Positions 26,324 through 59,065 of a stretch of DNA of 64,000 nt are shown here, piece after piece. Origin of the DNA: Octopus sinensis (taxonomy: Eukaryota); NCBI RefSeq assembly GCF_006345805.1, contig NC_042999.1:118420001-118484000 (forward strand), in the 5' to 3' direction. Position numbers and translations under genes: made by a program. Position 1 is the stretch's first letter. Every line of letters begins with the position of its first letter. The notes under the pieces were generated by a model that was not told the DNA's origin, searched no databases, and saw only the letters and a list, made by a program, of their open reading frames with translations.

Positions 26324-29275
26324 TAATCCAGCTACAAAAATGCCTCATGATAATAGCAAAGGAGAATGGGCACCAGCCAGCCAGCCCAAAGGTTGGGCTG
26401 CACCTGCCTACCTGTAAAAGGAAGGTGCAAGCACTTGTACTGGGTTGCGCAAGCATGACTTGCCTTATGATGGCTGATGGCCTAAGGAGAATCTTGGGGT
26501 AAGGTTGTGAAGTTGGAATGTGTGCAGTCTGTGTGGAAGGAGGACTGAGGTGTGTGAGGAATTGAGGAAGAGGAGGGTGGATGTGTGCTGTGTGCAAGAG
26601 GTTAGGTGGAGGGGCCAGGGTGTAAGATTTGTGGGGGTCAAGGGAAAAAGGTACAAGTTGTGGTGGTTGGAAAATAGCAAGGGGACTGGAGGTGTGGGAA
26701 TTTTGGTGAAGGAAGAAATCTGTGAGAAGGTGGTAGAGGTCAGGAGAAAGAGAGACGGAGTGATGATAATAGTATTAGCATTTGAGGAAGAGGGGGTGCG
26801 GGTATTTTGTGGGTATGGTCCACAAAGTGGAAGAGGGATCACTCCAAAAGGGCAGTTCTTTGTTGAAATGGCGAATGAGTGGGACTTACAAAAGGTAGAT
26901 GAATTGGTTTGGGGCATGGGTGATTTTGATGGACATGTTGGGAAATGGATCCATGGCATTGAGGGCATGCATGGGGGAAATGGAATTGGGGTGAAAGATT
27001 TGGAAGGAAGGATGCTGTTAGAGTTTTGTGATGAGAAAGCGTTGTGTGTGGTGAATACATGGTTTAGAAAAACAGAGAAAAGGAAGGTGACTTTTAGTGC
27101 AGGAGGGAATGAGACAGAGATTGATTTCATGTTGGTTGGCAGGAGGCAAAATAGAAAATATCTGAGAGATGTAAAGACAATACCAGGGGAGTTGCAGCAC
27201 AGGTTGGTGATTGCTGACTTGGATAAGAGGGAAGTTACAAAGTGTGTGAGAAAGGGAATGGCTGAGAGGAGAAAGGTCCAGAAACTGAAAGAAGAAACAA
27301 AGCAAGGTTTGAGGAGAGAGTTGGGGAGTTAGTAAGCATTGATGCACCAGAAGTGAGTGGAAGGACGAAGGGTAGGAGAGATCAAGGAAATATGTGATGG
27401 TGGAAGGAGGAGGTGAGGAATGCTACAGTGAGGAAGAAGGAGGCACACAAAGCTTTATGTAATAATAGGAATGAGCAAATGAAAGTCAGGTATAATAACA
27501 TGAAGAAACATGCAAAAAGGGGGTGGTTGTGAGATCTATGTAGAAGGAGGCTGAGGAGAGGTTGAGCAGGCTGGAGGAGAACCCAGATAGAGCGTTTAGG
27601 TTTATTAAATCAATGAAAAATGATGGAAGAGATGTTGAGGGAGAAAGATGCATGAGGGGGAGTGATGGAAGGTTGAATTTTAGTAAGGACAGGGGGAAGA
27701 GTTTAGAAGGAGCATATGGAAGGAATTATGAATGAGGAGAATGAATGGGATCAGAGGGTGGAAATTGCCATAGTGCAGGTGCCAGTGGAGAGGGTTAGTC
27801 AGGAAGAAGTAGTGGAGACAATGAAGGAAATGAAAGCAGGGAAGACAGCTGGTCTGTCAGAAATAAGTGTGGAAATGATAACTGCAAGTGGAAAGATAGG
27901 GATTGTTGTGATGATGGAACTCTGCCAGGAAATGCTGGATGGAAGAGGAATGCCAGATGATTGGGTACTAAGTGTGGTGGTACCAATTACAAAGGGGAAG
28001 TGAGATGTGATGAGTTGTGGGGAGTATAGAGGAGTGAAGTTATTGGAGCATGCAATGAAGATAATGGAAAGGGTGTTGGAGAGGAGAATTTGGAAAGGGG
28101 TAGATGTGGATGAGATGCAATTTGGTTTTATGCCAGGAAGGAGGACAATAGATGCAGTGTTCCTTGTAAGGAGATTGCAGGAGGAATACTGAGATAAAGG
28201 GAAGGAGTTGTACATATGCTTCGTTGATCAGGAGAAGGCATTTGATAGGGTTCCAAGGAAGGTGATTGAATGGGCATTGAGGAAGAGAGGTGTACTAGAG
28301 GTAATAGTGAGAACAGTGATGAGTTTGTATGTGTGAGCATTGAATCAGAGCTGTCAGAGGAGTTTGTAGTGGAAGTTGGTGTGCATCAGGGATCTGTGTT
28401 GTCACTATTGTTGTTTGCAATAGTGGTTGATGTGGTAATGGAGAGTGCAAGAGAGGGACTGCTAATGGAGATACTGTATACAGATTACATTGTTCTGATG
28501 AGTGAGACGATGGAGGGATTGAGGGAGAGTTTTGGAAATGGAAGGAGGCATTTGAGAGCAAGGGTTTGAAGGTACAAATCAGGAAGATAAAGGTGATAGT
28601 GAGTGGGGTGGAAGGAGAAGTATTAGTAAGGTGGATCTATGTGGTGTATGTGGAAGGAGGGCAATGACAAATACAGTGTTGTGTACAAAATGTGAGAAAT
28701 GGATTCATGGTAGATGTATGAAAATGAAGAAGGTGATCCCAAGACTGGCAAGAAAGTTTGTTTGTGGAAGATGAGAGAAAGGAGCTGGAGGGCTGGCAAG
28801 GTCAGTGGAAACACTATGTGATGGGAGGAGACAGTGAGAGGGTTTTGTTAATTGGGAGATAAGGTGGATGTTAGTGGTGGATGTGATTTGACAGCAAGAG
28901 CAAGACTTGGCTGGGTGAAGTTCAGGGAATGTGGAGCAATATTATATGGAAAAAGGTTGAAAGGAAAGGTGTGAGAGATGCGATGCTCCAAGGGTGAATG
29001 GAGTGCAGTGATATGAGCATGTGTTGAGGAGGGATGAGGAGCATGTTCTGAAGAGGGTGCTAGAGTTTGAGGTAAACAGACAGCAAAAGCGAGTTAGACT
29101 GAGGAAAATGAGGACAGGATAGGTGGATGAGGAGATTGGGAGGGTTGGCTTAAGAAGGGAGAATGTCCAAAACTGGAAAAGATGGTGAGATGGTTGCTAT
29201 GGCATTGAGATAGATCCAGCCACCCCCATTAATGGGGACAAAACCCGGATTCAAAATGATGGATGATGATGATGA
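26324..29275 (+). mobile_element. Near full-length degenerate RTE-clade LINE (APE endonuclease + reverse transcriptase)
   Basis: APE motifs VDVCCVQEVRW, GGVGILV, MGDFDGHVG, EIDFMLV; RT motifs YRGVKLLEHAMKIMERVLE, QFGFMPGRRTIDAVF, VGVHQGSVLSLLLF, ILYTDYIVL; 3' hairpin and (GAT)n tail; many stops and frameshifts. Confidence 0.92.
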
Positions 29276-29331
29276 TATATATAAAAAGGATATATATATT
29301 TGCATTGGGAATCACTTCACATTGACAACCG

Positions 29332-29389
29332 GTGATTTCACATGCTGATGATGGGTCAAAATCCAGAAACCCGGGTCTGTGTGTATCAC
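29332..29389 (+). ncRNA. Minimal type-I hammerhead ribozyme fold (Penelope/retrozyme type)
   Basis: Stem I GTGAT-tt-CACATG / TGTGTG-t-ATCAC; core CTGATGA 29345-29351; stem II TGGG-tcaaaa-TCCA; GAAA 29366-29369; palindromic stem III ACCCGGGT; GTC cleavage triplet with C17 at 29377. Folded by eye. Confidence 0.8.
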
Positions 29390-29595
29390 ATCAGGTTGGA
29401 GATGGGAAGGATGGCTTCCCTTTGCAAATACTGATAGGGTACAGAAAGTGTGTCAGTAGCCAGCTGGAAGAGGTGTCTTCCTAGTGCTACAAGCTACAGT
29501 AGCATCCACCCTTAAGGGCTAGCCACATTTCAGTGGCAAATATATTTCATGATGTCATGCAGCTACTGTTTATACCTCACTCAGAGATTTATTAC

Positions 29596-29653
<58 letters not shown>

Positions 29654-31165
29654 CACACACACACACACATATGTATATATATATATATGTATGTATGTAT
29701 GTATGTATCTATGTATGTATGTATGTATACAGGTATGCATGTATAACTTTTAATTTAAAAATGAAGACCTTAATTTCTAAATTAAAAATTCTAAGGAAGT
29801 ATATTTATCCAAAGTAAGCAAGATATATTGACATTCAGGCAAAGAGTCTTCATTCTACTTTACATTTTCCCCTCTAAATCTTTATGGCTCTACAACATTA
29901 AGATATATAAAGAAATTACTTATAATATTCAATGAAAATATATTGTCAAAGCTTCTTTGCATAAATGAACATTTGTCTTCATTTATCAAAAAATCTCTTC
30001 TGGCAACAGCTTTTGTTAATCCATTGAATAATGAACTGCAGTTACATTAGTCGAGGATAAGATGAGAGGTTTTGTTTAAAAACTGAAATTGCTTTAATTC
30101 TCATTATTCATTCTTGTTTAAAATTGGTGGTTAAATTATTTAGTGAGAGCAGTATATTAAAGTTTACTGTATTTATTGATTAAATTACAGATTTCTTACT
30201 TTATTTCTTCACTTTTGAGAGAAAACTACTCCAGAATTTAGACATTTTTTTTACTATATTAATAAAGATGGAGGACCGCACCTTAAAGGGAGATTGACAG
30301 TGTATTTTGTATTACAGAATATGATTGCAAATATGAAAGGGAAAAATCACTGTCTCTGAAATGCACATACTCATGCACAGACATGCCCATGTTTTATTTC
30401 ATTCTAATTCAACTTCATCTTTCTTGGAAGATAATCAGAATTCACTAGTTTTCCTTAAGCCATTTGATATTAATCCACCTGAGACCATCTTAGTTCTAGG
30501 ATACAAACTTTCTGTTTGAATGTGGTCTAAATTAAAACTTCCCATCAAAATTTTGTGTTAATTTATGTTTCAAAAACCAGCTTGATAATTACAAAGTGAT
30601 TTTAGAAAATTTTTCAGTATTTAAAAGAATATAATGGTAGTGTATTTCAGTTGAAATATGGTAACAAAAAGGTTAAATCATCATCATCATCATCATCGTT
30701 TAACGTCCGCTTTCCATGCTAGCATGGGTTGGACGGTTCAACTGGGGTCTGGCAAGCCCGAAGGCTACACCAGGCCAGTCAGATCTGGCAGTGTTTCTAC
30801 AGCTGGATGCCCTTCCTAACACCAACCACTCCGAGAGTGTAGTGGGTGATTTTATGTGCCACCGACACAGGCACAAATATAGGTATTTTTTGTTTGGTAT
30901 TATTTCTTCTGGTTAAAACATACAATACATGTTGTAATCTAATGTTGGTCTGTTATAACGTCCACTCCAGTATAGCAGTATATTTAGTCAGGTAAGACAC
31001 GACTATCTATGACCGACTCCCCCAAATTCTCCTATGTCAAAGTATTTGTAATGATTATTACATACCACTCATTGCATGGGGGGAGTATTCCATTATTATT
31101 ATCATTTCCATAATGATCTATGATTAATATTTTCTCTCAGGTCTTTTATATAAACAAATGCAGAT

Positions 31166-35751: not shown

Positions 35752-38500
35752 CAGAGTGACAATGTTCTTCTCAATATGTAAGATGTACCAGTTAAGACAA
35801 TCTTTTGCACTTCCTGAAGGATGGTAAGCCAGGGATCATTCTTAAATAATTTTCAGTTCCTTTTTTGATCATTCCAAGTGCTCCTGCAATCACTGGTATT
35901 GTAACTATCTTGAGACGCCACATCTTTTTGATTTCAATTAGCAAATCTTTGTATTTTCTGATCTTATCAAATTCTTTTGCCGAGATGTTCTTGTCACAGG
36001 GTATGCTCATGTCAGACTTTACTGTTTTGGTCTTTCACAACAATATCTGGTTTATTTGCTTTGATGGTCTAATATGTACATACTGGGAAGTCCCAAAGAT
36101 TACTTACATTTTCTCCCTCAGTTACAGCCACAGGGTGGTGCTTGTACCATTTGTCAGCAGTTTTGATTTTATTGGGTTGGCAACTAAGTCCCTGCTGTTT
36201 TTTTAAATTAAAATTTTTTAAAAAGGTTTAATAAAAAATAACAACTAATTAATCAATAATGTATTCACCCTTCTTGTTTACAACTTTTTCCCAATGTTCA
36301 ACAAGATTTTCAATACCTCGTTGGTAGAAATCACCCGATTTCGACTCAAAAAATGAATCCAACCATCACTCAATTCTGCATTAGTGTTGAACAAAACTCT
36401 GCACATAGCATTTGAAAGAGATCGAAATAGGTGGAAATCTGTTGGTGCCAAATCAGGAGAATACGGCAGGTGTAGCAGCACTTCCTAGCCATGCACTTGA
36501 ATGACTTCCTTGGTCATATTAGCGACATAAGGGCGGGCATGGTCGTGCAGCAGAAGACCTCCATGCTGCCGATTAGGTCGTTTCTCTTGAATAGCCATGT
36601 TGAGTCGTTCCATCTGTTGAACATAGAGTTCTGCATTGACTGTTTGGTTCCGTTCAAGCAATTCATGAATGGATAATCACTTCCCAGTCCCACCATACAC
36701 ACAACATTGTTTTACGCAGATGAAGATCTTGTTTCATGTGCGATGTTGCTTGTTTACCAGGGCTTACCATTCCTTACACTGCTTCATATTGATGTACAGG
36801 CACCATTTTTCATCGCCAGTAATGATTCAGTAATCAAATCGTTGCTTGTATCCATGAGTTGAGTGGTGATGAGAAAGCAAACCAGCAGAGATTGTGGATT
36901 GTTGATTTTTGTAGTCACCTAAAGCATGTGGAACCCATGCTTCATACTTCTGAACGTTTCCCGTCGAATGAAGATGCTTCTCTATAGCAGTGTGGGAGCA
37001 TTCCATTTTCTCTGCCAGTTCCCTTGTCGTTTGACAAGAATTTTCGTGCAAATGTTGGTTTAATCTCTCTTCATCAAACTCAATTGGACGGCCAGAACGA
37101 AGTGCGTCTGTGAGGTAAAAATTTCCATTTTTGAACTTGGCATACCAATCACGAGCGGTTCTTTCAGCTATGGCACCCTCTCCATACACAGCACAAATGC
37201 TGCAAGCAGCTTTTGTTGCTTTAGAACCTTGATTAAAAACAAAAAGAAGGAGGTGTCGAAAATGCTCATTTTTCTTAACTTGACATTCCATTTTAATGAT
37301 CTGAAAATAAACAAAAATTAACTAAAATTAACTAGAAAAAAAAAAAAACAGACTCCAAAATGATTCCAAAATAGAATTCTCGAAAAAAAAAATAGATTCC
37401 AAAATTTACAAAAGCAATAAATTCCAAAATTTAAAAAAAATTGGCGGAAACTTAGTTGCCAACCCAATATAATGCTGATACACATTATCAAATGTAGATA
37501 TTGGCCAACTCTGTCATGTCTTGATTTGTACTCTACAGGTGCTAAAGCCTTACATCCTGAGATTAGGTGGTCCACTGTGTCTACCTCATTGTTGCAGTAT
37601 TAGCACTTTGGGTTTACATACACCATTTTTCATCACATTAGCTTGATAGTTCAAGATCAGTAAGTTCTTTCTTGGGTAGCCAAGATAATACCTTCACTCT
37701 CTGCCTTTAACCTGGAGCTCCATAGCTGCTGATGGGTGTGCTTCTGGTCTACATCAGTGTGTTTGCTGTGGGCCACATATTTGCCATGCAGAGGTTTTTG
37801 TTCCCACCTATCAGCCAATTGTTCAAACACATTTTGCTTTACTATTGATTTCACCTTCTTTGCAACTACAGTTGCTGCACTTCCATCATATTGTTCAACC
37901 TGGGTATTATGCATAAACTCACTTGAAAATTTTTTGCTCTCCTTCATAACAGAATGAAACTTCTTAGGTCTTTCATGATTTTCAACGAGCTTTAGTATCC
38001 AGTTGTTAGATGTTTCAAGATATTTTGCCAGTGCAATTGTGGTGATTTTGCAGGAAATTTCAAATTGAATCAAGCCTCGAACTCCTTGAGCTCTGGGTAG
38101 GTAAAGACAATCTGTGTCTGCCTTTGGGTGGTGCATCTTATTGCAAGTCAGCAGCTCACAGATTTTCCTGTCAATCTTCCATATTTCATGCATATTCCAG
38201 TTCAACACATTGAAACTGTAAATAACGACCAGAACTGCTAAGGAATTTATAGCTAACACCTTATTATGTGCATTTAACTCAGATTTAGGACTGCTTGAAC
38301 TCTCCTGGAACACTCCTTCCTGATCATCTCTTTCATACTTGCATGTTGAATGCCAGAGCCCTCACTTATTCCGAGGTATTTGAGATCTTTTTGACTGTGT
38401 CAACATCCAACATCACTGAATGTAAGTTCTTCAGTTTCCCTTTCTAGAAAGTGCCCTTGGCACGTCTATCAAGACCAAATTCCATTCCAATGTTATCACT
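35752..38500 (-). mobile_element. R4/Dong-like REL-endonuclease LINE remnant, split by a mariner
   Basis: HHPKADTDCLYLPRAQGVRGL, KPLHGKY, zinc knuckle ..DHLISGC..YKSRHDRV, REL domain NKPDIVV..DMSIPCDKNISAKEFDKIRKYKDL..IPVIAGALG. Confidence 0.88.
36172..37467 (-). mobile_element. Mariner transposon (second family) nested in an R4/Dong-like LINE
   Basis: Perfect TIR ttgggttggcaactaagt / acttagttgccaacccaa with TA duplication; ORF fragments FRHLLLFVFNQG..WVPHAL and HLPYSPDLAPTDFHLFRSL. Confidence 0.95.
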
Positions 38501-38539
38501 GAATGCTTTCATTAAAATTATTATTATTTGCCTTTGTAA

Positions 38540-38740
38540 GGCAGAATTGTTAGCATGCTGGATGAAATGCTTGCAGTATTTCGCCCATTGCTATGTTTTG
38601 AGTTCAAATTCCACTGAGATTAACTTGCCTTTCATCCGTTTGGGGTTGATAAATTAAGTACCAGTGAAACAGTGTGGTCGATGTAATCAACTAGTCCCCT
38701 TCCCCCAAATTTCAGGCCTTGTGCCAATAGTAGAAAGGAT
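38540..38740 (+). mobile_element. SINE family B copy
   Basis: Colinear with 10115-10329; ends in a (TAT)n tail. Confidence 0.8.
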
Positions 38741-41325
38741 TATTATTATTGCCGTCATCATCATTATTATTTTAATTGTTGTTATTGTTATTCTTCTTGT
38801 TATTATTATCAACTAACAACTAAGTCTTTACATATGACTGGCAATGGTATCTGCTATCTTCTATAAATACTTGGTTTTCCTTTGTGCATTTCAGATAAGG
38901 TGACCTATGACCAGTGCCAATGGCCTATTCAGGTCTTGTCAGTCTGCTGATGTTGATGTAGTTGCTCCTCAGATTCAATTTTTACAATTTATAGTGTAAG
39001 GAAATTCTAAAAATTGCAGTTTTAATTGGAAAGGTTTAGGGCACAAAAATTAGTGTGAAGTTTAGGAGTATGTTACAGCAAGAAATAGTAAAAAGTAAAT
39101 TTGACAAATAAACTGAAAGGTAAATTCAAGGAGCACAGTGAAGGGTAAATTAGATGAACTTGTTCTGCTAATTCAGAAAAGCAAAATCTGTTGTAATAAC
39201 AGTAGGGAATTCAAAATGAGGATTGAATGTTTCTAATTACAAGGATTATAGTGCATATGTAAGAAATGATTGGTCAGATGACTTTTATTTTTAAGTGGAT
39301 ATCTAAAATGCTTGTACATGTGTAGTAGCTGCCGTGTTCTATGTATGTGAACAATGTTCTAATATACACATCCAGCTGCTGAAATAGTTTCTGATTTTGA
39401 AGAGAAATTCTTTGAAATGCAGGTTTGGTTGTGAGCTTTAAAAAAATGAAGAATATATTAAATAGCATAGCCTTGATACATTTTATCTGAATCAAAGCTG
39501 GAATGGTCACCACTACTAGAACACTATTAAGAATAGGTCTACTTAATCACAGCAACAACACATTAATACTATTGATTGTTAGTTTTTAAAAAGAATCTTG
39601 CACAAAGTAAACTATTTCAACACAATGACATACAAATTCATTCTTAATATGTCCCAACAGATTTGGACATGACTATGCTAATTGTTGTTATTTAGCATAT
39701 TCCCATTCAAATCTGGCTGAATGTATTAAAACTGAATCTGTACATCAGTGTTTTGATTCTCTCTGGTCTCTTAGCACATGATAATTTATTATTGGCTTGG
39801 CAGACATCAGCACACATCAGCAAATAATTTGTTTTGTTGAATTCTATAAACAAGAGCTCTAATTCTTATTTAGATTCATCAATTCAGGCATAGCCTTGAG
39901 TGAAGTGACATAACAGTGTTGAAACACAGTGGTGTCTCAAAGATCCTATACATCAAGGAATCAAGTGTGTAATAAAAACACACTATCTGAAAAGTTAGGG
40001 TGTTCTCTAGAGATGTAATACATTAGCAATTAGCATATTCATGTTTGAATCTACTGGAATGTATTCATGTTCAAATCTGCCAGAATATTTACATCATTTA
40101 CTTCATTCTCACAGTTGTTTGTGCACATAATTTATAATCTCAAAAAACCCATCATTTTCACATAAAACTATTTATTGACAACAATAAGCTATAGTAACTC
40201 TGCTATAGAATATTTACTACTGCTATCATATTCACCCTAATCATTCTAATTGCGATCATTATAATCTTGTTCCTTATTTATTTACTTTCGTGATAATTTC
40301 GTGTCATTGATGATATGTTAGTGTGAGGCATTGCCAAAGTAGTATCTGATTTTACTTGTATTGAATGTTACTTTCATCAGCTAAAAGAAAATCTAAATGT
40401 CTCTCATATTCATCAAAACTTCTCTCAGACTATATTTTCTCCCACAGTTGTCTCACAGACTTCAGGTGGGAATAGTTCTCAGATCTCTATGACCCAACAA
40501 GGCACCAGGTGTGCACAGTTACTTTCCATAACCCTCAAACAGTATTCCCCAGATCTAGTTCCTTGTTCAAAATCTCTTCGATATTTCCCATGACGACAAA
40601 GATATATTTCAAGCAACAGGAATACATTAGGATGGCTCCAGTCAAAATGGCAACCTATCTATCTTTAACATTAACTGATGTATTCTCCTCATTACTAAGT
40701 TCTCCATGATGAGAGATAGTCAAAAACAATCATCTCCTTCACTCCTTTCAGCCTATTTTCATCTTTAGGGTTTACCATCCAAGCTAAGTGTCATACCTTT
40801 GATCTCCATCTTTCTATTGTTTCTTACATTGGAAAGTTCTGGTCATACCACTTAATTTTAGGGATTTTTCTGATCTATACAATATCAATGTTGGTGTTAT
40901 CCTAAGGTTGGGTTTTGTCACTAACAGTCTTCTTATTGCATATTAATGACATATTACTATCACTGTTAATACAGTAAATACACTGCCATTCCTTATCCTT
41001 CTGTATACATTATCAACAGGCCACCTAAGCAGTTCAGGGATGAATTGCACTACTTCTTTGAGCAAAGACCTCAAAAAACATCTCATAGAACCATGACAAT
41101 TCAGTATCCACAATAAAAACACCAAATTTCGACCACAAAGTTTTCAAAGAAGCACTAGCAAAGTTACTACAAATGTCAAACTTTACAATCTTTTACCTCT
41201 CATATTCAGTTATGTTACATTGACAAATATGAGTCTTTCAAACTATATTTCTCATTGAGGTAAGAATAGTCTTCAACTCTGATCAGTTGCTAACTTTCTG
41301 TATAACTCGGGTGAAACTTATATCA

Positions 41326-57972: not shown

Positions 57973-58644
57973 TGTTGTAAATGTAGTAATAATATATTTC
58001 CTATATATGGATTTTATTTTAAGATATCATATATTGCATGGTTTTGCAATTTCAATGATTTTGCATGAGATCTTTGAGGAAGTATTTTGCAGATATATGA
58101 ACAATGATTTAACTCTGATATTGTAGATATAGTTTTTAAAAAATCTCTATCTTATATGAAAGAATCAAATGTGATCAATAGCAGAAAAGGATTCAATAAC
58201 TTTTCTGTTACCTTTGCATCAGTTTCAATGATATTTAGGCTTCATAAATTAGTGTTTGATTTTTCTTCATTGCATGAGTGCATGCATGTCTGCGTGTGTC
58301 TGTGTATCTGTGTCTGTGTGTATGTGTGTGTAAACACACTTTGCTCAATGTAGAACGAATGAGAAAGGAGTGATCAATACGTGTTGTAGAATAAGTAGTT
58401 TTTTTACTAAAACTGAAGCTGTGACTTCATCTGATGACTGCACTGGAATGAAAATTGTGTCACAAATTCACCCCTTCAGTTCTAATACATTCACACACAT
58501 ACACACACACACGTGCACACACATATAACATATATATATATTGGTAAAAACGGTAAGATAACAGAAGAAAGAAAGAGACCTCAATATTATGTAAATAGAG
58601 AAAATATATCTATAAAATAATATGTTACAATTACTCAATAGTCA

Positions 58645-58707
58645 AGATAAAACTCTGAGTTTCAGATGCCGAAGTGGAAATCCACAACACCATCTCTTCG
58701 GTTATCT
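58645..58707 (-). ncRNA. Variant hammerhead ribozyme fold (CCGAAGA core), left arm of palindrome
   Basis: Reverse complement reads agataa-CCGAAGA-gatg...catct-GAAA-ctcagag-TT-ttatct, a mirror copy of 58946-59008 with one difference inside stem II. Confidence 0.6.
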
Positions 58708-58945
58708 GGCCATCTGAAAAAACACTATGAAAAAATACTGTTATATAAAGGGAAATTACTGTGTTATAATTCTGCTACTTATATAAATCAAGATTAAAAG
58801 TTCATAGTAAACACGTAAACATGACTAGCCATGTTTACATGTTTACTATGAACTTTTAATCTTAATTTATATAAGTAGCAGAATTATAACACAGTAATTT
58901 CCCTTTAAATAATGGTATTTTTTCATAGCGTTTTTTCAGATGGCC

Positions 58946-59008
58946 AGATAACCGAAGAGATGGTGTTGTGGATTTCCATTTCGGCATCTGAAACTCAGAG
59001 TTTTATCT
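58946..59008 (+). ncRNA. Variant hammerhead ribozyme fold (CCGAAGA core), right arm of palindrome
   Basis: Stem I AGATAA/TTATCT; core CCGAAGA 58952-58958; stem II GATG...CATC with one extra T; GAAA 58990-58993; stem III ACTC-a-GAGT; GTT triplet with position 17 at 59002. Confidence 0.6.
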
Positions 59009-59033
59009 TGACTATTAAGTAATTGAAACATAT

Positions 59034-59065
<32 letters not shown>

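What the first reader, a model, noticed from the sequence alone, without database searches (positions are those of the whole stretch)
29290..29546. Canonical-looking hammerhead ribozyme in a 250-bp unit with short inverted ends
Seen: a complete type-I hammerhead at 29332-29389 (CTGATGA, 4-bp stem II, GAAA, palindromic ACCCGGGT stem III, GTC site, extended stem I with an internal loop). It lies in a GC-richer unit bounded by imperfect inverted ends atatatttgcattg / cagtggcaaatatat, immediately downstream of the RTE tail on the same strand. Known: palindromic stem III is typical of dimer-active minimal hammerheads in Penelope-like elements and retrozymes. Inference: a small non-coding self-cleaving retroelement, possibly still catalytically competent, which could cut any plus-strand transcript after 29377.
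Basis: partly seen in the sequence, partly recalled or inferred. Interest (0 to 1): 0.8.

Follow-up and report, generated by a model that had tools for sequence, protein, structure and literature searches.

The report
Penelope-mobilised hammerhead retrozyme family
This is an old, partly decayed copy of a 355-base repeat present in thousands of copies that carries a hammerhead ribozyme motif (predicted to self-cleave), and the family's insertion ends and hybrids with Penelope-like retrotransposons show the pattern expected if those retrotransposons copy it into the genome, likely from a small RNA circle.

Summary
The type I hammerhead is real (core 29345-29377, predicted cut after 29377). The '250-bp unit with inverted ends' is not: the element is 29283-29598, 316 nt of a 352-357-nt monomer with at least 2,360 copies. 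The window copy belongs to the oldest subfamily, is solo and CpG-decayed. Younger subfamilies (1.5-2% divergent, arrays up to 7 units) keep the core, show compensatory stem changes, hit Rfam Hammerhead_1 and fold as strongly paired circles. This is a non-LTR retrozyme. The added value is at family level. 3' ends fall at two fixed sites about 43 nt apart, mostly into (TA)n. 64 of 65 classifiable inverted pairs use one site each. That is the 'tail' signature described as unique to Penelope-like elements (PLEs), and this genome's PLEs show it too. Three of 182 loci join age-matched PLE coding DNA directly to the retrozyme. No similarity to the sampled PLE termini was found, so it looks like a parasite rather than a PLE fragment. 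The neighbouring LINE is a chance neighbour. Cleavage and circular RNA were not tested; this particular copy is probably weak or inert.

The parts
29283..29598 (+). Retrozyme copy, oldest subfamily (A): 316 nt of a 352-357-nt monomer, 5'-truncated, ending at the distal ('tail') 3' site
   Evidence: 20 of 289 columns differ from the subfamily majority, 8 of them at the 20 CpG columns
29326..29398 (+). Type I hammerhead with extended stem I; stem I proper 29339-29344/29378-29383; loop 1 lacks the family's G
29345..29377 (+). Catalytic core: CUGAUGA 29345-29351, stem II 29352-29356/29361-29365, GAAA 29366-29369, stem III 29369-29376, GUC with predicted cleavage after 29377; all 11 conserved core letters and C17 intact
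29547..29553 (+). Proximal 3' end site of the family (site S, monomer phase about 269), read through in this copy
29554..29598 (+). About 43-nt PLE-type 'tail' between site S and site T (phase about 312-316)
   Evidence: tail described in Frangieh 2024 and Craig 2021
29599..29646 (.). (TA)n target microsatellite at the 3' junction; a short TA run (29277-29282) lies at the 5' junction
29294..29546 (.).
26400..29275 (+).
   Evidence: Pfam PF03372 at 26511-27329; frames; 0 of 19 other copies are followed by the retrozyme

Best explanation
The window holds an old, solo, CpG-decayed copy of an abundant non-LTR retrozyme: a 352-357-nt non-coding repeat with a type I hammerhead, which is likely transcribed from tandem copies, predicted to self-cleave into monomers that likely circularise, and is likely copied into (TA)n sites by the reverse transcriptase/GIY-YIG protein of Penelope-like elements (PLEs). 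Shown: family, copy number, subfamily succession, conserved core with covarying stems, tandem and inverted copies, two fixed 3' ends, (TA)n targets, three PLE-retrozyme junctions. Inferred: transcription of arrays, cleavage (probably best as dimers, given the 2-3-bp stem III), ligation to circles, and target-primed reverse transcription. In that step the PLE protein would prime one target strand at site S and the other at site T on the same RNA, run round the circle to give tandem units, and sometimes switch to its own mRNA. The window copy is likely a dead-end product with weak or no activity.
For: Copy number: 3,040 first-look candidates; 2,360 exact matches to a shared 24-mer; exact cores 50 (A), 210 (B), 654 (C). 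Divergence from own majority: A 8.3% (59 copies), B 2.0% (41), C 1.5% (32). Covariation: 93.6% of 1,272 cells paired, 8 of 24 pairs with two-sided change, e.g. stem II G-C 28 / A-U 23 of 53. Core in old copies: 5 of 364 non-majority letters against 512 of 9,143 elsewhere (p 8e-5), equal for singletons (p 0.84), so source lineages spared the core and inserted copies decay neutrally. Circular fold z -6.8 to -8.8 for 4 young monomers. Ends: 159 of 187 arms and 84 of 93 arms end at S or T; (TA)n follows 118 of 159 and 82 of 84. Inverted pairs: 64 S+T, 1 T+T, 0 S+S, 21 with an unclassified end, of 86 (p 2e-11 for the first set). Young PLEs here show the same two ends and TA flanks. Frangieh 2024 ties the tail to two RT start sites, unique to PLEs. 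Direct PLE-ORF junctions at L085, L262, L291, each age-matched. 115 of 159 arms (18 of 37 in the unbiased subset) cross the cleavage site with no pile-up of 5' ends there, and private variants are shared by all units of arrays (7/7, 5/5, 4/4) and by inverted arms.
Against: No cleavage, RNA end or circle was observed. The one complete old-subfamily monomer folded was not better than shuffles (z -1.2). 16 of 32 variable pairs in the three-subfamily circular fold are broken in at least one subfamily. The commonest old-subfamily 10.1-11.1 pair is a C.A mismatch, and one lineage carries U4C in at least 6 copies, so selection on catalysis was not absolute (U4C is reported to keep in vivo function in a viroid). 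The hammerhead fold lies 5.9-8.4 kcal/mol above the local minimum, worst for the window copy. Most rare variants in arrays are single-unit (32 of 40 in C, 83 of 94 in B) and some are partial, which fits later mutation or assembly error but also heterogeneous multimer templates. In the one PLE tested in vitro, ribozyme cleavage was not needed and uncut RNA was the main substrate. Only 1 of 9 frog retrozyme dimers cleaved in vitro. The three junctions could also be insertions beside an existing PLE with a deletion. The structure counted was drawn from these sequences and cells are not independent events.
Confidence: 0.8

Rival explanations
1. Same family and same PLE helper, but the template is the uncut tandem transcript; the ribozyme is not needed for insertion and circles play no part.
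For: Frangieh 2024: hammerhead mutants insert normally in vitro and no reads end at the cleavage site. Arms cross the cleavage site freely. Some array variants are partial (3 of 7 in L219).
Against: Core spared and stems covarying across subfamilies 11-22% apart. The whole monomer folds as a closed circle. Variants private to a locus are shared by all its units. Mussel, coral and axolotl retrozymes accumulate as circles.
Confidence: 0.2
2. The monomer is the pseudo-LTR (or a direct derivative) of an autonomous PLE family that I did not sample, as proposed for frog retrozymes.
For: PLE-type architecture; Li et al. 2026 found 24 of 57 frog retrozyme families homologous to known elements, nearly all PLEs, at their termini. 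Only 150 of 5,029 GIY-YIG candidates were scored.
Against: No similarity between the monomers and any sampled PLE locus (the one hit, L053, is an independent neighbour). No shared coding 5' extension among 75 free 5' flanks. The three PLE junctions involve three different families (69-74% alike), at different ORF positions, and those families have their own termini and other hammerheads.
Confidence: 0.1
3. This particular copy is a working ribozyme that cuts host or LINE read-through transcripts and may be kept for that.
For: All 11 core letters and GUC intact; stem II closed by U-A; perfect stem III palindrome with the strongest self-duplex of the three variants (-14.9 kcal/mol).
Against: 27 of 32 equally old copies also keep an intact core, so intactness is expected at this age. 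The copy shows ordinary CpG decay, two wobbles beside the core and changes in both tertiary loops. It is solo. No host-gene Pfam match above cut-off in the 8 other long window ORFs scanned.
Confidence: 0.06
4. A MITE-like element with short terminal inverted repeats, or a 3' module or SINE partner of the upstream LINE.
For: Imperfect inverted match in this copy; TA flanks; same strand as the LINE tail.
Against: Homology continues past both arms; copies are permuted tandems with random 5' ends. 0 of 19 other LINE copies carry it behind their tail. Family ends lack the LINE's (GAT)n tail.
Confidence: 0.02

Closest known systems
Metazoan non-LTR retrozymes (Cervera and de la Pena 2020, PMC7229834), closest the mussel family of about 350-390 bp
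   Same: Monomer size, GC under 45%, canonical type I hammerhead with short stem III, tandem copies, thousands per genome, highly paired predicted circle, no ORF, PLEs in the same genome.
   Different: Mostly dispersed 0.3-3-unit and inverted copies (longest seen 7.1 units). Two fixed 3' ends, (TA)n targeting and PLE junctions are not described in the passages I read. Cleavage and circles not shown here.
EN+ Penelope-like elements, Neptune/Nematis type (Craig et al. 2021; Frangieh et al. 2024, PMC11167929)
   Same: 5' truncation, partial tandems, inverted 5'-truncated arm, 30-45-nt tail on one end, AT-rich or microsatellite targets, hammerhead.
   Different: No ORF; canonical rather than minimal hammerhead; no sequence similarity to the sampled PLE termini.
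Frog non-LTR retrozymes as pseudo-LTR derivatives (Li, Clavereau and Pollet 2026, 10.64898/2026.07.22.740005)
   Same: Monomers, dimers and multimers; inferred dependence on PLEs.
   Different: Their link is co-occurrence and pseudo-LTR homology. Here no homology was found and the link is insertion anatomy and hybrid loci.
Rfam RF00163 Hammerhead_1
   Same: Youngest subfamily matches the full model, E 3.3e-6.
   Different: 32.2 bits is under the gathering score of 34; the window copy gives no hit at E<=10.

Membership tests
Type I hammerhead ribozyme | Conserved core CUGANGA / GAAA / NUH between three helices, open at stem I | tested here: met
   covariation; Rfam hit for a young copy
Type I hammerhead ribozyme | Purine-pyrimidine (usually G-C) pair 10.1-11.1 | tested here: inconclusive
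   G-C in subfamily C; A-U, U.U or G-U in B; C.A in A; U-A in the window copy. U.U is known in natural hammerheads.
Type I hammerhead ribozyme | Self-cleavage after H17 | not testable with these tools
   needs an in vitro assay or raw RNA reads; only contigs were available
Non-LTR retrozyme | 150-450-bp non-coding monomer with canonical type I hammerhead, GC under 50%, no LTR layout | tested here: met
   352-357 nt, GC 0.42-0.44; permuted tandems, not LTR-flanked. PBS and PPT motifs were not searched for.
Non-LTR retrozyme | Tandem copies with a complete ribozyme in consecutive units | tested here: met
   family: arrays to 7.1 units; the window copy itself is a solo monomer fragment
Non-LTR retrozyme | Highly self-paired circular RNA fold | tested here: met
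   z -6.8 to -8.8 for 4 young monomers; not for the 1 old monomer tested; prediction only
Non-LTR retrozyme | Accumulation as circular RNA in tissue | not testable with these tools
   no run on record as RNA, contigs only
PLE-mobilised element | Two adjacent RT start sites leaving a 30-45-nt tail on one end; inverted 5'-truncated arm | tested here: met
   64 of 65 classifiable inverted pairs are S+T, about 43 nt apart
PLE-mobilised element | AT-rich or microsatellite targets shared with co-resident PLEs | tested here: met
   (TA)n after 200 of 243 S/T ends; same for PLEs
Autonomous PLE or its pseudo-LTR | RT plus GIY-YIG ORF, or homology to a PLE pseudo-LTR | tested here: not met
   no ORF; no similarity to sampled PLE loci; sampling of PLE families incomplete
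Minimal PLE-type hammerhead | Long helix II, short helix I, little or no helix III, bulge before stem II | tested here: not met
   6-bp stem I, 4-5-bp stem II, 2-3-bp stem III against the definition
MITE / TIR element | Termini defined by conserved inverted repeats | tested here: not met

The most novel reading that the evidence does not exclude
This genome holds a still-active retrozyme that is not a PLE fragment but a free-standing RNA parasite, passed between several Neptune-type PLE families over time. A dimeric PLE reverse transcriptase copies one ribozyme-made RNA circle twice, from two fixed start sites about 43 nt apart, one per target strand, and sometimes switches to its own mRNA. 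The hybrid loci name the helper proteins, so rolling-circle retrotransposition of an animal circular RNA could be rebuilt in vitro.
Probability: 0.45. Interest if true: 0.75.

Novelty: new member of a known kind. Interest (0 to 1): 0.55.

Why it matters
Which autonomous element moves animal retrozymes is left open in the papers I read: PLEs are 'a strong candidate' and the mechanism 'remains to be elucidated'. This family carries the PLE-specific tail signature, strict S+T pairing in inverted insertions and direct hybrids with age-matched PLE ORFs. That turns a co-occurrence argument into anatomical evidence and points to specific young PLE proteins and a young RNA to test. The strict pairing also constrains how PLE insertion itself works (both target strands primed, at different sites). 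The single copy in the window matters little: it is one decayed member among thousands.

Tried and rejected
Rfam on the window: nothing at gathering score, no hammerhead at E<=10 around the locus. RNA: no RNA holder listed. Contigs of four runs only guessed to be RNA hold pieces of the young subfamily; contigs cannot show ends, strand, level or circles, so this is not used as evidence. The window's unique flanks had no cover in three such runs while a DNA-like run covered them; a blank, not evidence. L053 (retrozyme beside a 775-aa PLE ORF) first looked like the parent; 0 of the 30 loci of that family (about 4 kb each, centred on the ORF's 3' end) carry it and microsatellite separates the two: rejected as chance. 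Four other young loci lie near PLE pieces but are separated by microsatellite or other DNA (L266, L268, L280, L315): not counted as hybrids. A second hammerhead-like string near 29430-29455 was noticed by eye and does not pass the descriptor. Core statistics used a biased classifier or mis-set positions and were replaced. Earlier findings by sequence: none. Literature searches for a prior description in the suspected host group found none; supplements of PMC7229834 and of the bioRxiv papers, Repbase and Dfam were not seen and may list this family.

Full report
1. The motif. The sequence at 29326-29398 forms a type I hammerhead: stem I 29339-29344/29378-29383, CUGAUGA 29345-29351, stem II 29352-29356/29361-29365, GAAA 29366-29369, stem III ACCCGGGU 29369-29376, and GUC with predicted cut after 29377. 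A strict descriptor finds only this site in the window, against 0.01 per window in 200 shuffles. Rfam does not find it.

2. The element. A search of the own genome (G000, 2.7 Gb; from its repeat landscape I guess an octopus-like mollusc, recalled and untested) gave 3,040 candidates, 40 scored, 54 matches at 84-91% apart from the self hit. Homology covers 29283-29598 and continues in other copies into a head-to-tail monomer of 357 nt. A shared 24-mer has 2,360 exact matches, a lower bound. There are at least three subfamilies, 78-89% alike: A (window; 8.3% mean divergence, 59 copies), B (2.0%, 41) and C (1.5%, 32); 14 copies were left unclassified. Exact core counts are 50, 210 and 654. Arrays reach 7.1 units. 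The upstream LINE ends in its own (GAT)n tail; 0 of 19 other copies are followed by the element.

3. Selection on the ribozyme. On 53 chosen copies (of 110 aligned), 93.6% of cells pair and 8 of 24 pairs show two-sided change, above 499-500 of 500 shuffles. The structure was drawn from these sequences and relatedness inflates the counts. The main events are stem II G-C to A-U and outer stem I G-C to A-U and C-G to U-A. Shared variants at N7 (U/C) and H17 (C/A) fall on tolerated positions. In old copies chosen by overall similarity, the 11 core positions carry 5 of 364 non-majority letters against 512 of 9,143 elsewhere, but singleton rates are equal: source lineages spared the core, inserted copies decay neutrally. 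Against strict selection: the C.A pair at 10.1-11.1 in A and a U4C lineage of at least 6 copies. A young copy matches RF00163 at E 3.3e-6. Four natural young monomers fold as circles with z -6.8 to -8.8 (40 shuffles each), the one old monomer at -1.2. Across the three subfamilies 81 of 113 circle pairs are unchanged, 9 compensated, 7 one-sided and 16 broken in some.

4. The window copy. It differs from the A majority at 20 of 289 columns, 8 at CpG sites, and lacks the G of loop 1. Both stem I pairs next to the core are now wobbles, loop 2 has U-to-A, and the U-A closing stem II is a CpG-site change from C.A. The core is intact, as in 27 of 32 copies of like age. It has no neighbour unit. That loops 1 and 2 must interact for efficient cleavage and that short-stem-III hammerheads work best as dimers is stated in Cervera 2014. 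I infer weak or no activity.

5. How the family moves. In 122 loci, 159 of 187 arms end at one of two sites, phase about 269 (S) or 312-316 (T), and 118 of these run into (TA)n. In 60 further young loci taken in listed order, the figures are 84 of 93 and 82 of 84. Of 86 head-to-head inverted pairs, 64 are S+T, 1 T+T, 0 S+S and 21 have an unclassified end; 12 of 13 pairs in the unbiased subset are S+T. The genome is rich in PLEs (5,029 GIY-YIG candidates, 147 matches of 150 scored; RT plus C-terminal GIY-YIG; a Cys-rich linker as in Neptune/Nematis, clade not tested by tree). Their young copies end likewise at two sites into (TA)n (16 S, 12 T, 3 read-through in 30 loci). Frangieh 2024 showed that a PLE protein cuts both strands of AT-rich DNA, is predicted to be a dimer, and starts reverse transcription at two internal sites whose spacing is the genomic tail, a signature it calls unique to PLEs. 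Three of 182 loci join sense-strand PLE coding DNA directly to the element's 5' side. At L085 (subfamily A) the PLE piece is 92-94% like its family. At L262 (C) it is 97-98%. At L291 (C) it is 99%. The retrozyme parts differ from a family copy by about 9%, 2.3% and 1.3%. Template switching in one event is my reading; insertion beside an existing PLE with deletion is not excluded. The monomer shows no similarity to any sampled PLE locus, and 75 free 5' flanks share no coding extension.

6. Template form. 115 of 159 arms (18 of 37 unbiased) cross the cleavage site; 5' ends do not pile up there (3 of 159 within phases 88-106; 3 of 93 within 92-102). So cut linear monomers are not the main template. 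Locus-private variants are shared by all units in L219, L231 and L228 and between inverted arms in several B loci; within-locus divergence is 0.7% against 1.6% between loci in C and 1.7% against 2.7% in B. This fits repeated copying of one circle, but also homogeneous source arrays or later local homogenisation. Most rare variants are single-unit.

7. Comparison with what is known. It works like, and meets the testable features of, the non-LTR retrozymes of Cervera and de la Pena 2020 (seen: passages and section 14), whose mussel family is 350-390 bp. Li et al. 2026 (seen: parts 1-3 of 5) link retrozymes to PLEs by co-occurrence and pseudo-LTR homology. Craig et al. 2021 (passages) describe the tail and inverted arm for PLEs. 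Cervera 2014 (parts 1-2 of 4), Perreault 2011 (passages) and Frangieh 2024 (parts 1-2 of 4) supply the ribozyme and mechanism background. Six searches listed no paper that by title or opening abstract describes this family or the two-site signature in a retrozyme; supplements, Repbase and Dfam were not seen.

8. Verdict. The locus is an ordinary decayed copy and the kind of element is known: new member of a known kind. The family evidence for PLE-driven insertion addresses a stated open question and names testable partners. My odds: retrozyme family 0.93; PLE mobilisation 0.88; circular intermediate 0.65; this copy active in vivo 0.1. Interest 0.55.

Noticed in passing
window 58604-59049: Head-to-head inverted pair of 223-nt arms, 95% complementary, no spacer, TA-rich at both outer ends; looks like another PLE-type inverted truncated insertion.
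   Followed up: no
window about 30680-30870: Very high-copy short repeat after an (ATC)n run; far deeper than the retrozyme in all four runs laid; probably a SINE.
   Followed up: no
window about 36300-37400 (- strand), inside a broken ORF region 36000-39500: Decayed mariner-type transposase (PF17906, E 3.5e-19), apparently nested in another decayed retroelement ORF.
   Followed up: partly
L097-L126, L217, L218: Very young PLE family (98-100% identical, 775-aa ORF) whose terminal hammerhead carries U4C in all 37 hits, while an older relative (L059) has U4; the same change marks one retrozyme lineage.
   Followed up: partly
L318-L328 and L330-L340: Two young PLE families whose termini read as minimal hammerheads with the U3-A8 core variant and a palindromic stem III (read by eye; variant described).
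   Followed up: no
L054-L057, L220, L221: A young PLE family with 762-781-aa ORFs whose 3' region holds about 93-nt repeats with CCAAT- and CRE-like words; no hammerhead found in the first 750 nt after the stop.
   Followed up: no
L066 (- strand, about 7867) and L034 2621 / L066 4667: Further hammerhead-like motifs of other families near a GIY-YIG hit.
   Followed up: no
   Followed up: no
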